Shown here piece by piece: positions 1-3,000 of a DNA stretch of 17,049 nucleotides. Made by a program: the position numbers. Position 1 is the stretch's first letter, and the number at the start of each line of letters is the position of its first letter. The stretch is taken from IMG/VR virus record IMGVR_UViG_2585427751_000001. One strand, given 5' to 3'. This stretch comes from a virus. Taxonomy: Duplodnaviria > Heunggongvirae > Uroviricota > Caudoviricetes.

Positions 1-3000
1 AAGTGAATTCAAACAGGGTTCTGGCGTCGTTCTCGTACTGTTTTCCCCAGGCCAGCGCCTTAGCATTAACTTCCGGAGCCACACCGGTGCAAACCTCAGC
101 CAGCAGGGTGTGGAAGTAGGACATTTTCATGTCAGGCCACTTCTCTCCTGAGCGGGGCTTTGCTATCACGTTGTGAACTTCTGAAGCGGTGATGACGCCG
201 AGCCGTAATTTGTGCCATGCATCATCCCCCTGTTCGACAGCTCTCACGTCGATCCCGGTACGCTGCAGGATAATGTCCGGTGTCATGCTGCCACCTTCTG
301 CTCAGTGGCTTTCTGTTTCAGGAATCCAAGAGCTTTCACTGCTTCGGCCTGTGTCAGTTCTGACGATGCTCGAATGTCGCGGCGAAATATCTGGGAACAG
401 AGCGGCAATAAGTCGTCATCCCATGTTTTATCCAGGGCGATCAGCAGAGTGTTAATCTCCTGCATGGTTTCATCGTTAACCGGGGTGATGTCGCGTTCCG
501 GCTGACGTTCTGTAGTATATGCAGTATTTTCGACAATACGCTCGGCTTCATCCTTGTCATAGATGCCAGCAAATCCGAAGGCCAGGCGAGCACACTGAAT
601 CATGGCTTTGTGCCGTAACATCCGTTTGGGATGCGACTGCCACGGTCCGGTGATTTCTCTGCCTTCGCGGGTTTTGAATGGTGCGCGGCGACATTCATCC
701 ATCCACTCGGTAACGCAGATCGGGTGATTGCGATCTTTGCGGTAAATCCGGCATGTACAGGACTCATTGTCCTGCTCAAAGTCCATGCCATCAAACTGCT
801 GGTTTTCATTGATAATGCGGGACCAGCCATCAACGCCAACCACCGGAACGATGCCGTTCTGCTTGTCAGGGAAGGCGTAAATTTCTTTCGTCCAGGGATT
901 AAGGCCGTACTGGTTGGCGACGATCAACAATGCGATAAATTGCGCATCGCTGGCATCACCTTTAAATGCCGTCTGGCGAAGAGTGGTGATTAGTTCCTGT
1001 GGGTCGACAGAATCCATGCCGACACGTTCAGCCAGCTTCCCTGCCAGCGTTGCGAGTGCTGTACTCATCCGTTTTATACCTCTGAATCAATATTAATTTG
1101 GTGACGGGCGATGGTTTCAGCCATGTAGCGGATGTGTTCTGCCATGCGTTCCTGAAAATCGACATCGTCATCAAATGCACGGGAAATAGCTTTTTTGCTG
1201 GCCCCGTGACGTTGCAGATTATCGATGCATAGCGATTCAAACAGGTGTTGGGGCAGGCCTTTTTCCATATCGTCTGCCAGTTCTGCCTCTTTCTCTTCAC
1301 GGGCGATCTGCTGGTAGTGACGCGCCCAGCTCTGAGCCTCAAGACGATCCTGAATGTAATAAGCGTTCATGGCTGAACTCCTGAAATAGCTGTGAAAATA
1401 TCGCCCGCGAAATGCCGGGCTGATTAGGAAAACAGGAAAGGGGGGTTAGTGATTCAGGCCGTTACCGCGTCCGTCGAGAAAAACTTCTACGAGCAAATCA
1501 CGGGTATAAGTGCGCTCGATGCCGCGATGCAGATAAAGCCGCCCGCGTAAATTAGCTGATGCAGTCCAGGTACCATCTTTGTGTTTGACCAGCATTCCTG
1601 GCATGACCGCGCCGCGATTAACGGTCTGTGTTCCGTAATGTTGATGAACCATAAAAACTCCTGCCCGTAAGCTGGGCTGCTGAACATATAGAGACTTCTG
1701 CGCGTATTCAGGCGGTGGATGGCCGCCGGTTGTCATAACTAAGCCGCCTCGTTGAAGCGACTGAGGTATGAAATGTTGAGTTAATTTCAGCTGGTCACAC
1801 CGACGTTCACGCGTCCGTTTCACCCCTCGCACTCCCCGAAGCCTGCTGAAATTCAAACTGCGGATCTAAGCGGTCATCGCAACGGTGAATCAGGTGGTTG
1901 CCGTATCGTTGTGTTGTTGCGATATGGTGATAATAGCCATTGCTATTGGGGGGGGTATCAATACTTATTGCTATTGACTGATGTGTTTTGATATTAAATG
2001 TTTGATAGCAAAAAGAATTAATTTTGTGACTTGCATCGCATAGCGATAACTGAAGCAGGGATGTGGTGGTTTTTTGAGCGGTGTGTGATGAGGGGAGGGG
2101 ACAAAAGAAAACCCGGCACGGTGGCCGGGTTATTAATTAAATTAGTCAGTTTTTTCTACTGTAACATAGAGGCAGCATTCAGCATCTTTTCGTAATATGA
2201 ACGCATGTCTTCTTTGCTATATGCGTTGATAAGATTATCAGCGTGTTTTTCCAGTAGATTTAGCTGCTGTTTTGCTGACTTTTCTTGTGCTGTCGTTTCA
2301 GCGGCAAAAATTACAAATGAATCAATATTTGAATTGTATAATTCGTAGGCTTTAGTAATTGTTAAAACACTTATCGCAGCTTCACCCATTTGTTTTTTTA
2401 TATTTTCAGAACGAAAATCTAATGTTTCTGTAAGATGGTATTTGCCATTTTTTAACAAAAAATCTGCAACTAACCCTTCTTCATTACTAATTGGATAATT
2501 AGCTACGATTTTATGTTGGGAAAGATCTTCAAAATACTTACTGAAAATTCCATGTTGTATAAAGGTGGATTTTAATTCAGAAAAAACCTTTTTTTTCAAC
2601 TGTTTATGTGGCTGTTTTTGTGGGTTTACTAACCGATTCATTAGATCAGTAACTTTAGCTTCGTAATCTTCGTTGGCTTGAAGAGTGAACATGCCAAATG
2701 ACGATAACGATAATGCTCCCTTAAAAAGACAAGGAAGAAGTTCAGCATTGTTGATTTTTTGTGACAAATCAAAAAGCGAGGTCGAAAGATCCTCTAAGTA
2801 ATCTAAGGTAAGATCTTTGTCAATCGCTTTAAGTTTTGAAACTGAATTGAGCATACGTACGTCTATGTCAGAGTCATGGTAAACGATCAAACCAACGTTA
2901 ATCGTTTCACCTTTCTCTAAGTTCGGTGTAACTCTGATTAAGCTGTATTTGAAAGTTTTCAAGATGTTATCTCCAGTCTTATGGCATTTAGCCTATCGAT

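What the first reader, a model, noticed from the sequence alone, without database searches (positions are those of the whole stretch)
1446..1995. No recognisable N gene: the first ORF after the OL-like operators is an unidentified protein with an arginine-rich N-terminus
Operator-like repeats sharing TTGCTATTG with the OR cluster sit at 1939..1977. The first leftward ORF (1856..1446) does not resemble lambda N or Kil. There is no room for a separate N gene between the operators and this ORF. If translation starts at the upstream TTG/GTG, the N-terminus (RLRGVRGVKRTRERR) looks like the arginine-rich RNA-binding motif of N-type antiterminators; if it starts at the ATG at 1736, that motif is not translated. 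Only 24 nt separate cro from the next gene, leaving little room for a nutR site. Early antitermination in this phage may therefore differ from the lambda paradigm.
Basis: inference. Interest (0 to 1): 0.4.

Follow-up and report, generated by a model that had tools for sequence, protein, structure and literature searches.

The report
Kil gene behind a long leader
The "unidentified protein" is the phage's Kil cell-division inhibitor read together with the non-coding leader in front of it. The prophage does lack an N antiterminator and any nut or put site, a layout that is common in E. coli but whose transcription control is unexplained.

Summary
The 136-codon ORF (1856..1446, minus strand) is real only in the mechanical sense. 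Its last 68 codons (ATG 1652, SD AGGAG 1662-1658) are a KilR/phi80-type Kil FtsZ inhibitor (PHROG_294 E 1e-37; NCBIfam FtsZ-inhibitor model aligned from its first residue to M69). That meets the finding's own refutation criterion.

The arginine-rich stretch lies in a ~270-nt leader transcribed from PL. The frame is broken in 29 of 70 relatives by an in-frame TAG, a 5-nt insertion or frameshifts. Its codon positions 1 and 2 vary 3-10 times more than in kil, gam and bet. It has no N-like homologue among 5.8 billion proteins.

The absence of N holds. I found no N or Nun similarity, no boxA above chance, no put RNA (covariance model 9 bits against 57-97 for real put) and no second copy near PR.

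The leader occurs, unannotated, in 2238 of 5426 complete E. coli genomes and in plaque-forming phages such as Perceval and 4A7. It contains a 60-nt two-hairpin module with strong covariation. N phages (phi80) and put phages (HK639) share this module, so it is not the antiterminator.

Most likely this is an N-independent early region whose leader attenuates kil. A new leader RNA mechanism is not excluded.

The parts
1932..2022 (.). OL operator cluster: AATAGCCATTGCTATTG at 1932-1948, AATACTTATTGCTATTG at 1960-1976, and a third related site at about 2005-2022
   Evidence: TTGCTATTR occurs only at OL and OR: 4 matches against 0.35 expected. The same operators are conserved in relatives.
1930..1961 (-). 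PL promoter: -35 TTGATA at 1961-1956 and -10 TATTAT at 1935-1930. In this window a C8 run (1955-1948) stretches the spacer to 20 nt.
   Evidence: Relatives have TTGATA-17-TATTAT, a 10/12 match in Perceval (sequences). The simple scan does not call the window copy because of the 20-nt spacer. None of 489 complete genomes with this immunity type has the C8 form.
1653..1923 (-). About 270 nt of 5' leader of the PL transcript. It is non-coding and carries no annotation in RefSeq genomes.
   Evidence: Three different promoter/operator types join the conserved sequence at or next to TCGCAAC (1922), so this is the likely +1. The leader is present in 2238 of 5426 complete E. coli genomes with no annotated feature. 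PGAP annotates only the 68-aa Kil.
1876..1923 (-). 5'-terminal stem: AUCGCAAC (1923-1916) pairs with GUUGCGAU (1883-1876) around a C-rich, G-poor loop
   Evidence: Fold. The first 40 nt of the leader have C=13 and G=4. Citrobacter, Kluyvera and Enterobacter kil leaders start with an analogous stem, CGACAAC..GUUGUCG, which differs by two compensatory pair changes.
1860..1889 (-). Conserved island 1: UUCACCGUUGCGAUGACCGCUUAGAUCCGC. Its function is unknown.
   Evidence: pi is 0.004-0.008 across 70 relatives, against 0.04-0.11 in flanking leader and 0.047-0.056 at third codon positions.
1778..1860 (-). 83-nt element predicted to form a closing stem with two inner hairpins. It contains the 'arginine-rich' codons (1844-1800) and conserved island 2 (1814-1785).
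   Evidence: MFE -27.3 kcal/mol, z -2.23, 7 of 200 shuffles as stable. Island 2 has pi 0-0.004. A covariance model finds no homologue in other kil leaders or in N or put phages, and no second copy in the window.
1761..1763 (-). Codon 32 (CAG) of the long ORF. It is TAG in the commonest related allele.
   Evidence: In 23 of 70 sequences the TTG-1856 frame stops after 31 codons.
1711..1770 (-). Conserved two-hairpin RNA module. CAUACC plus hairpin A spans 1770-1734, and the base of hairpin A buries AUG 1736-1734. Hairpin B is GGCGG-CCAUCCA-CCGCC at 1727-1711. AUG 1736 opens the uORF MTTGGHPPP...
   Evidence: Fold z -3.2. Across 36 distinct sequences 97% of cells are paired, 6 pairs show compensatory change, and there are 51 double-change cells against 17 in shuffles (0 of 500 reach the observed value; slid controls 31-51% paired). 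The module is present in at least 120 IMG/VR contigs, in phi80 directly after tL1A, and in HK225, HK639, CobraSix, S9-5, KO-TP1 and ENT1.
1658..1662 (-). Shine-Dalgarno AGGAG, 5 nt upstream of the kil ATG
   Evidence: Read directly from the sequence. The last 60 nt of the leader are the most constrained part (pi 0.0067).
1446..1652 (-). kil: a 68-aa KilR/phi80-type cell-division (FtsZ) inhibitor, stop codon 1448-1446
   Evidence: PHROG_294 E 1.3e-37. NCBIfam NF008465 'FtsZ inhibitor protein' E 1.8e-17, with model positions 1-70 aligned to residues 69-136 of the long ORF. Identity is 85% to HK225 Kil, 84% to mEp237 Kil and 41-42% to phi80 Kil (BLASTP E 5e-16). The RefSeq annotation is WP_000233576.1, 'phage encoded cell division inhibitor protein'.
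1403..1420 (-). Weak terminator-like hairpin between kil and gam. The same sequence occurs in lambda.
   Evidence: 5-bp stem, -11.7 kcal/mol. The identical hairpin is found in the lambda control scan.
2110..2131 (-). Intrinsic terminator ending the cI-moron operon, just upstream of OL/PL
   Evidence: 8-bp stem with 6 GC pairs plus a U run.
4885..4908 (+). 24-nt gap between the cro-like (YdaS family) gene and the cII-like (YdaT family) gene. It holds no nutR, no putR and no terminator.

Best explanation
The long ORF is a read-through artefact. The real gene is kil (ATG 1652 to stop 1446), a 68-aa KilR/phi80-type inhibitor of FtsZ. It is the first gene of the PL operon and is followed by gam, bet and exo.

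Everything between the PL start (about 1923) and the kil Shine-Dalgarno sequence is an untranslated or at most weakly translated leader. The arginine-rich string is simply how a G-rich leader segment reads in that frame.

The prophage belongs to a very common E. coli lambdoid lineage that has no N, no nut sites and no put RNA. In this window, delayed-early genes are reached by plain read-through:
- No convincing intrinsic terminator lies between PL and bet, or between PR and Q.
- The PR genes are tightly packed or overlapping, so translation should shield the transcript from Rho. This last point is an inference.
- Q remains the only dedicated antiterminator.

The long naked leader is then the one place where Rho, RNases or ribosome access can act. 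I infer that it serves as an attenuator or insulator that keeps the toxic kil gene, and the genes behind it, low unless PL fires strongly. The features pointing that way are its C-rich 5' part and the conserved two-hairpin module that buries the AUG of a short uORF.

Shown here: gene identity, start codon, absence of N, nut and put, conservation and distribution of the leader, and the structure of the module. Inferred: N-independence and the attenuator role.
For: Kil identity and start.

The frame upstream of M69 is not conserved. It has an in-frame TAG, a 5-nt insertion and single-base indels (41 of 70 open, 29 of 70 broken). Codon-position diversity is unlike that of real genes. No protein family matches the first 68 aa, and no N-like homologue turns up.

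No N or Nun. boxA is at the chance level, with no match in the leader or after cro. No put (with HK022 and HK639 as positive controls). No Rfam family. No leader-like copy in the PR operon.

Terminator scan of the window:
- It finds the cI-operon terminator (2131-2110) and the post-Q terminator (12129-12149).
- Between PR and Q on the + strand it finds only 5-7-bp weak hairpins.
- Between PL and bet it finds only 1420-1403.
- The same scan on lambda finds the ren-ninB terminator and several hairpins in the PL operon.

The leader 5' end is C-rich and G-poor. The 5' 150 nt evolve almost neutrally (pi 0.037 against 0.047-0.056 at third positions), while the kil-proximal 60 nt are strongly constrained (pi 0.0067).

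The module is shared with phi80, where it lies between tL1A and the annotated Rho-dependent tL1B. In HK639, hairpin B is annotated as a terminator.

KilR of the Rac prophage is kept silent by NusG/Rho-dependent termination and is toxic when read through (PMC5793797).
Against: - Rho-dependent terminators cannot be predicted with these tools, so 'no terminators' covers intrinsic ones only.
- The functional relative Perceval carries three good terminator-like hairpins on the PR strand between ren and Q (L229 11528, 13602, 15058). It also carries the lambda-type GGAGCTACAGGCTCC+U-run hairpin in its PL operon. The lineage as a whole may therefore still need some form of antitermination or internal promoters.
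- Two 30-nt leader islands are almost invariant and remain unexplained.
- 41 of 70 relatives keep the long frame open, and diversity at its third codon positions (0.059) is somewhat higher than at positions 1 and 2, so a short translated peptide is not strictly excluded.
- The window's own PL has a 20-nt spacer and the lysis genes are missing. This copy may be defective and its layout not under current selection.
Confidence: 0.55

Rival explanations
1. The leader, or its conserved islands and 83-nt three-way element, is a new cis-acting RNA that makes RNA polymerase termination-resistant. It would be a functional analogue of HK022 put that is unrelated in sequence.
For: - It starts at +1 of PL, exactly where putL sits. 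The same PL/operator type is joined to putL in Salmonella phage UPF_BP1 and to this leader in E. coli prophages.
- Two 30-nt islands are nearly invariant.
- The 83-nt element folds better than shuffles (z -2.2). Frequent polymorphisms A1847G and A1818G fall opposite U, so they keep G-U pairs.
- Functional N-less relatives carry terminator-like hairpins in both early operons.
Against: - The put covariance model gives no similarity.
- There is no second copy for the PR operon and no room for one near PR.
- Most of the 5' leader evolves nearly neutrally.
- The whole-leader fold is no better than shuffles (z -0.46 and 0.09).
- One promoter type replaces the first ~35 nt.
- The element is confined to one young E. 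coli lineage, so no covariation test is possible.
Confidence: 0.12
2. One reading: a short arginine-rich peptide (from TTG 1856, or from GTG about 1823 behind GGAG) is translated and acts as a miniature N-type antiterminator.
For: - KRTRERR resembles the lambda N motif TRRRERR by eye.
- The first 31 codons stay open in 68 of 70 relatives.
- A GGAG lies 8 nt before the second GTG (sequence).
- pi at third positions (0.059) exceeds pi at positions 1 and 2.
Against: - The match to lambda N scores E 41.
- No family hit.
- Only 3 sporadic gene calls cover it in 5.8 billion proteins, although the DNA is in thousands of genomes.
- Diversity at positions 1 and 2 is 3-10 times that of neighbouring genes.
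- The C-terminal end is not conserved (TAG, 5-nt insertion).
- There is no boxA or boxB partner at PL or PR.
- Known N proteins need NusA- and RNAP-binding regions that a 20-31-aa peptide lacks (established knowledge of lambda N).
Confidence: 0.03
3. The 5' 150 nt of the leader is a functionless remnant or spacer left when an N-nutL module was lost or replaced. Only the kil-proximal part (module plus SD region) matters.
For: - Near-neutral diversity over most of 1922-1773.
- No thermodynamic signal overall.
- In phi80 and HK225 the module follows N or other genes plus a terminator, and here the 5' leader takes that place.
- Other genera have kil directly after PL with an 80-nt leader (L094, L095).
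Against: - Two invariant 30-nt islands.
- The junction with three promoter types is kept at the same point.
- The sequence shows no detectable similarity to any N gene or nutL region.
Confidence: 0.22
4. Antitermination is supplied in trans by another element, for example N of a co-resident lambdoid prophage or a gene outside the window.
For: E. coli strains often carry several lambdoid prophages. The window does not cover the whole prophage.
Against: - No nut-like boxA or boxB exists for such a factor to use.
- The relatives Perceval, 4A7, the PhiR phages and others propagate as independent phages, and their cI-to-int regions show no N.
Confidence: 0.03

Closest known systems
Kil of phage phi80 / KilR of the Rac prophage (PHROG_294; NCBIfam NF008465 'FtsZ inhibitor protein')
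   Same: A 68-73-aa protein with a conserved M-x-x-HYGT...PG...H...SA...G start and core, aligned end to end. It is an early leftward gene upstream of the recombination genes. Relatives are annotated as a septation inhibitor.
   Different: Only 41-42% identical to phi80 Kil, and below the curated NCBIfam cut-off (63 against 92 bits). Here it is the very first gene after PL. In this allele a uORF is fused in frame, so a 96-aa form is possible.
Lambda N / nut antitermination (also phi80 N, HK022 Nun)
   Same: The position: the sequence directly downstream of PL is where lambdoid phages keep nutL and N. The leader contains an arginine-rich-looking reading frame.
   Different: No sequence similarity, no conserved coding frame, no boxA or boxB, no nutR, and only 24 nt between cro and the next gene.
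HK022/HK639 put RNAs (cis-acting antiterminator RNAs)
   Same: A non-coding RNA that begins at the PL start, in phages without N. The same PL/operator type is found fused to putL in another phage.
   Different: The covariance model scores 9 bits against 57-97 for genuine put. There is no R copy, none of the conserved GAACGGC / GGCGGGUUCAGGAUGAACGGCAAU motifs, and most of the leader is weakly constrained.
Rho/NusG silencing of kilR in the Rac prophage
   Same: A toxic kil gene lies behind untranslated RNA in a prophage. The leader 5' end is C-rich and G-poor. The module is homologous to the phi80 segment that precedes the annotated Rho-dependent tL1B.
   Different: Rho dependence was not tested here. 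In Rac several genes separate the repressor region from kilR (my recollection), whereas here kil directly follows PL.
phi80 tL1A-tL1B intergenic segment / HK639 'terminator' (unnamed conserved module)
   Same: CAUACC + hairpin A + UUAUGACAACC + hairpin B (GGCGG-CCAUCCA-CCGCC), 84-97% identical in the invariant parts, with compensatory changes in hairpin A.
   Different: In phi80, HK225 and most contigs the module follows a terminator hairpin and U run, and its uORF stops after 16-24 codons. In this window it follows the 5' leader, and the uORF runs in frame into kil.

Membership tests
Kil (KilR/phi80 type; PHROG_294, NF008465) | Significant match to the family profile over the whole protein | tested here: met
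   PHROG_294 E 1.3e-37, residues 1-68 against profile 13-80/83. NF008465 E 1.8e-17, residues 1-68 against profile 1-70/73, but 63 bits is below the curated 92-bit subfamily cut-off.
Kil (KilR/phi80 type; PHROG_294, NF008465) | Homology to an experimentally named Kil (phi80 kil, 'blocks host cell division') | tested here: met
   BLASTP 41% identity, E 5e-16. The alignment has 19 invariant columns across phi80, HK225, HK639 and mEp237.
Kil (KilR/phi80 type; PHROG_294, NF008465) | Small early-left-operon gene next to gam/bet or recE-type recombination genes | tested here: met
   kil 1652-1446 is followed by gam 1370-1074 and bet 1068-283. The order is the same in Perceval, HK639 and HK225.
Kil (KilR/phi80 type; PHROG_294, NF008465) | Inhibits FtsZ and causes filamentation | not testable with these tools
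   Requires expression in cells.
Lambda Kil (47 aa) | Sequence similarity to lambda Kil | tested here: not met
   No alignment at E<=100. The two 'Kil' proteins share a name and a function but are not detectably related in sequence.
N-type antiterminators (lambda N, phi80 N, Nun) | Sequence or profile similarity to an N or Nun protein | tested here: not met
   Pfam, PHROGs and NCBIfam give nothing for residues 1-68. tblastn of lambda N, phi80 N and Nun gives no hit in the leader better than E 41. A search of 5.8 billion proteins finds no antiterminator.
N-type antiterminators (lambda N, phi80 N, Nun) | The arginine-rich motif is part of a conserved translated protein | tested here: not met
   The frame is broken in 29 of 70 relatives. 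pi at codon positions 1/2/3 is 0.032/0.022/0.059, against 0.006/0.002/0.056 in bet. TTG 1856 has no SD.
N-type antiterminators (lambda N, phi80 N, Nun) | Cognate nut sites (boxA plus a boxB hairpin) downstream of both PL and PR | tested here: not met
   boxA consensus with <=1 mismatch: 13 matches against 13.7 expected, none in 1653-1935 or 4885-4908. No shared element between the leader and the PR operon.
put antiterminator RNA (HK022, HK639) | Match to a covariance model built from 8 put RNAs | tested here: not met
   Window best 9.0 bits, E about 1, inside cI. Controls: 96.7, 93.4 and 56.7 bits.
put antiterminator RNA (HK022, HK639) | Paired L and R copies downstream of PL and PR | tested here: not met
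   No second copy of any leader segment >=12 nt and no model R2 hit elsewhere.
put antiterminator RNA (HK022, HK639) | Suppresses termination in cis through the RNAP beta' zinc-binding domain | not testable with these tools
   Needs reporter or in vitro transcription assays.
Rho-dependent leader attenuator | Long untranslated, C-rich, G-poor, weakly structured RNA upstream of the gene | tested here: inconclusive
   The first 40-60 nt have C 13 against G 4-7 per 40 nt, but nt 81-140 are G-rich. The leader fold is not better than shuffles.
Rho-dependent leader attenuator | Termination depends on Rho/NusG | not testable with these tools
   Needs bicyclomycin or rho/nusG mutants. The only support is homology to the phi80 segment upstream of the annotated tL1B.

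The most novel reading that the evidence does not exclude
The PL leader of this very common E. coli prophage lineage is a new, put-unrelated cis-acting RNA that controls transcription elongation of the early left operon. Two mechanisms are open. It could make RNA polymerase termination-resistant, using the invariant islands 1889-1860 and 1814-1785 and the 83-nt three-way element. Or it could act as a uORF/polyproline-gated Rho attenuator built on the widespread hairpin A - AUG - hairpin B module. Either way it would replace N-nut in functional lambdoid phages.
Probability: 0.15. Interest if true: 0.75.

Novelty: new variant of a known kind. Interest (0 to 1): 0.38.

Why it matters
The gene itself is ordinary. 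It does correct an annotation trap: several phage records- to 139-aa 'Kil' proteins, or even 'membrane carboxypeptidase', across this leader.

The layout is more useful. Plaque-forming lambdoid phages, and about 40% of complete E. coli genomes, carry an early left operon with no N, no nut and no put, and with an unannotated conserved leader instead. This gives a concrete, testable system for two questions. How do lambdoid phages time delayed-early expression without processive antitermination? How is the toxic kil gene kept silent in lysogens?

The two-hairpin module has strong covariation, is absent from Rfam, and is shared by N-type, put-type and N-less phages. It is a candidate new cis-regulatory RNA motif of lambdoid PL operons.

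Tried and rejected
- **Rfam.** Scans at gathering and at permissive thresholds found nothing in the leader.
- **put.** I built a covariance model from HK022 putL/putR, HK639, CobraSix, phiEt88, S9-5, PdC23 and UPF_BP1. The window is negative.
- **boxA.** The pattern search is at chance level.
- **nutR/putR-like second copy.** Short-word BLAST and model R2 found none.
- **N proteins.** tblastn with lambda N, phi80 N and Nun found nothing, and a phi80 N hit inside bet (E 0.002) is spurious.
- **Large protein database.** A search with the N-terminal 68 aa returned only E. coli gene calls.
- **Whole-leader thermodynamic stability.** Not different from shuffles.
- **Distant homologues of the 5' leader for covariation.** The phage 'distant' BLAST found only the same lineage. 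The genome contigs Kil scan gave only 9 loci, and these carry a different leader.
- **Literature.** King et al. 2011 (J Bacteriol, new antiterminator RNAs) could not be read. The put alignment in PMC9378689 is held only as an image. Searches for Perceval/Bievrevirus or for phi80 tL1 papers gave nothing relevant.
- **uORF MTTGGHPPP as a plain leader peptide.** Considered and left open. In-frame length variants support translation, but CobraSix is frameshifted while keeping hairpin B, and third positions are not more variable.
- **'No terminators anywhere in the lineage'.** Considered and rejected, because Perceval has terminator-like hairpins between ren and Q.
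Full report
**Setting.** The window is the early region of a lambdoid prophage.
- On the minus strand: bet (283-1068, RecT family), gam (1074-1370), the ORF in question (1446-1856), an intrinsic terminator (2131-2110), an AT-rich two-gene insert (DUF3037 2156-2962, HipA-like 2959-3807) and the cI repressor (3854-4582).
- On the plus strand: a YdaS-type cro (4651-4884), a YdaT-type cII analogue (4909-5454), O, P, ren, nin genes and a Q antiterminator (11665-12060).
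- Sources.

**The observation.**
- The operator words are real. TTGCTATTR occurs only at 1940-1948 and 1968-1976 and at 4591-4599 and 4616-4624, four matches against 0.35 expected.
- The ORF 1446..1856 exists mechanically.
- It does not resemble lambda N or lambda Kil.
- No other ORF lies between it and the operators.
- The cro-to-next-gene gap is 24 nt.

**What the ORF is.**
- Its C-terminal 68 residues match PHROG_294, 'Kil protein for bacterial septation inhibition' (E 1e-37).
- They also match the NCBIfam model for the Rac KilR FtsZ inhibitor. Model position 1 aligns to M69 of the long ORF (E 1.8e-17, below the curated cut-off).
- They are 85% identical to HK225 Kil, 84% to mEp237 Kil and 41% to phi80 Kil (E 5e-16).
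- All of these proteins start at the equivalent of ATG 1652, which has AGGAG 5 nt upstream.
- RefSeq annotates exactly this 68-aa protein in a genome whose leader is 100% identical, and annotates nothing upstream.
- The finding's own refutation criterion, a clear hit to Kil, is therefore met.

**The N-terminal 68 codons.**
- They match no family.
- Eighty IMG/VR prophage loci encode an identical Kil and give 38-52 leader haplotypes.
- The commonest allele has TAG at codon 32 (window CAG 1763-1761).
- Four haplotypes carry a 5-nt insertion, and two carry single-base indels.
- Among 70 alignable sequences, the TTG-1856 frame reaches kil in 41 and is broken in 29.
- Nucleotide diversity at codon positions 1/2/3 of the arginine-rich frame is 0.032/0.022/0.059. 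The values are 0/0/0.047 in kil, 0.012/0.011/0.052 in gam and 0.006/0.002/0.056 in bet.
- A search of 5.8 billion proteins found 38 E. coli gene calls. Only three cover the arginine-rich part, and none is an antiterminator.
- The resemblance of RTRERR to lambda N's RRRERR scores E 41.
- I conclude that the arginine-rich string is how a G-rich leader segment reads in one frame.

**Promoter and transcript start.**
- Relatives have TTGATA-17-TATTAT.
- Three different promoter/operator types are joined to the same downstream sequence at or near TCGCAAC (window 1922). This marks the transcript start and a mosaic boundary.
- One of these promoter types is the one that precedes putL in Salmonella phage UPF_BP1.
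- The leader is thus about 270 nt (1923-1653).
- It occurs in 2238 of 5426 complete E. coli genomes with no annotation.
- It also occurs in isolated phages: Perceval, 4A7, Lambda_4C10, 1W, 3W, D2, Turner, IdasGreatGrand and the PhiR phages. Their cI-to-int regions contain no N.

**Is another known antitermination device present?**
- A covariance model built from eight put RNAs scores HK022 putL at 96.7 bits, HK639 putL at 93.4 and HK022 putR at 56.7. It scores nothing in the window above 9 bits.
- boxA-like words are at chance frequency and absent from the leader and from the cro-cII gap.
- Rfam finds nothing there.
- No segment of the leader recurs in the PR operon.

N/nut and put are both excluded as far as sequence can show.

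**Anatomy of the leader.**
- *5' stem.* The 5' end forms a stem (1923-1916 with 1883-1876) around a C-rich, G-poor loop. The kil leaders of Citrobacter, Kluyvera and Enterobacter prophages begin with an analogous stem that differs by two compensatory pairs.
- *Constraint.* Most of 1922-1773 is weakly constrained (pi 0.037). Two 30-nt islands, 1889-1860 and 1814-1785, are almost invariant.
- *83-nt element.* Segment 1860-1778 folds moderately better than shuffles (z -2.2). The whole leader does not. This element has no homologue outside the lineage.
- *Two-hairpin module.* Positions 1770-1711 form a module that is widely shared. It consists of CAUACC, hairpin A, UUAUGACAACC and hairpin B (GGCGG-CCAUCCA-CCGCC).
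- *Covariation in hairpin A.* Across 36 distinct sequences, 97% of cells are paired against 31-51% when the partners are slid. Six pairs show compensatory change, and there are 51 double-change cells against 17 in shuffles, with 0 of 500 shuffles reaching the observed value. The base of hairpin A buries the AUG at 1736.
- *Where else the module occurs.* It is in at least 120 IMG/VR contigs. In phi80 it lies directly after tL1A and before the annotated Rho-dependent tL1B. In HK225 it follows a terminator. In the put phages HK639, CobraSix and S9-5 it also occurs, and in HK639 hairpin B is annotated as a terminator. The gene that follows it varies.

Because phages with N, with put and with neither all carry the module, it is not the antiterminator.

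**The uORF.**
- The uORF MTTGGHPPP... usually ends after 16-24 codons, with in-frame length variants.
- CobraSix, however, is shifted by one base while keeping hairpin B.
- Third codon positions are not more variable than the others.
- RNA-level constraint is therefore certain, while translation is only possible.
- In the window allele the uORF runs in frame into kil, which would give a 96-aa form.

**Do these operons need antitermination?**
- *In the window,* the same scan that finds the cI-operon terminator and the post-Q terminator finds only weak 5-7-bp hairpins on the PR strand between cro and Q. On the PL strand down to bet it finds only 1420-1403.
- *In lambda,* the scan recovers the ren-ninB terminator and several PL-operon hairpins.
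- *In Perceval,* there are three good hairpins between ren and Q, associated with inserted genes, plus the lambda-type GGAGCTACAGGCTCC hairpin in the PL operon.

Read-through without a dedicated factor is thus plausible for this window but not proven for the lineage.

**Best explanation and rivals.**
- The best explanation is an N-independent early region in which kil is the first PL gene.
- Its long naked leader limits kil expression, by analogy with NusG/Rho silencing of kilR in Rac (PMC5793797).
- I give this 0.55 overall. Within it, gene identity stands at about 0.97 and absence of N, nut and put at about 0.9.
- Rivals are a new leader RNA antiterminator (0.12), a functionless 5' remnant (0.22), a mini-N peptide (0.03) and a trans-acting factor (0.03).

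**Novelty.** The gene is known, and N-less lambdoid phages have been noted before (PMC12315714, where put was proposed for such a phage). New here are two demonstrations. First, a very common, functional lineage has neither N nor put. Second, it carries a conserved unannotated leader that includes a covarying RNA module absent from Rfam.

Noticed in passing
window 1948-1955 (minus strand C8 run), within PL 1930-1961: The PL spacer is 20 nt here because of a C8 homopolymer. All relatives have 17 nt (TTGATA-TCACC-AATAGC...). None of 489 complete E. coli genomes with this immunity type has the C8 form: the best match is 94.3% and 3 nt shorter. It is either a private promoter-down mutation or a homopolymer sequencing error.
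   Followed up: partly
window 12060-16321: No holin, endolysin or Rz genes lie between Q (11665-12060) and Nu1 (16321-16866). The interval holds only a DNA methylase (12624-13673), three tRNAs (13723-13969), the sRNA STnc100 (14049-14239), a truncated DUF1737 ORF (14461-14922), a TonB_C protein (15252-15593) and a DUF3950 ORF (15725-15925, minus strand). The prophage is probably lysis-defective.
   Followed up: partly
window 2156-3807 (minus strand): An AT-rich (31-41% GC) two-gene insert sits at the rexAB position between cI and OL. It comprises a HipA_2-like kinase (2959-3807) overlapping a DUF3037 protein (2156-2962). It gives weak hits to the PADLOC candidate defence models PDC-M03A and PDC-M66B, and is annotated HipA/'HipD' in phage PhiR5_1.
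   Followed up: partly
window 1711-1770; phi80 L091 2501-2560; HK225 L002 3001-3062; HK639 L084 4165-4211; L104-L223: A conserved RNA module (hairpin A with compensatory changes, a buried AUG of a uORF starting MTTGGHPPP, and hairpin B with the invariant loop CCAUCCA) is widespread in lambdoid PL operons. It usually sits right after the first terminator, in N-type, put-type and N-less phages alike. It is not in Rfam and its function is unknown.
   Followed up: partly
L093-L099 (Citrobacter, Kluyvera, Enterobacter, Silvania prophages), about 80-250 nt upstream of kil: In other genera kil is also the first gene after PL, behind a different conserved leader. Each starts with a 5' stem-loop at +1. 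The longer versions contain a long hairpin (GCUUCGCGGUGGUG...CACCACCAGCGAAG). L093 and L096 have the same operator type as this window.
   Followed up: no
window 10008-10036 and Perceval L229 14937-14965: Homology between the window and Perceval upstream of ninB begins exactly at a promoter-like TTGATT-17-CATAAT. It is followed by a conserved ~150-nt leader with a hairpin (CAGATGCAGAAATGCATCTG). This could be an internal promoter for the nin-Q block, which would bear on how Q is reached without N.
   Followed up: no
phage records OM475428/OM475430 (1W, 3W), OV696612 (Perceval), PV340545 (PhiR5_1): Public annotations of this locus are inconsistent. The same ORF is called 'membrane carboxypeptidase', 'hypothetical protein', a 139-aa 'FtsZ inhibitor Kil' or a 96-aa 'Kil', because gene callers extend kil into the leader.
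   Followed up: partly
window 7538-8283 (minus strand) and 8501-9250: An oppositely oriented pair (an unknown 132-aa ORF and an Arc-like ribbon-helix-helix protein) followed by an Ant-type antirepressor is inserted between ren and the nin genes. It forms a second, P22 immI-like regulatory module inside the PR operon.
   Followed up: no
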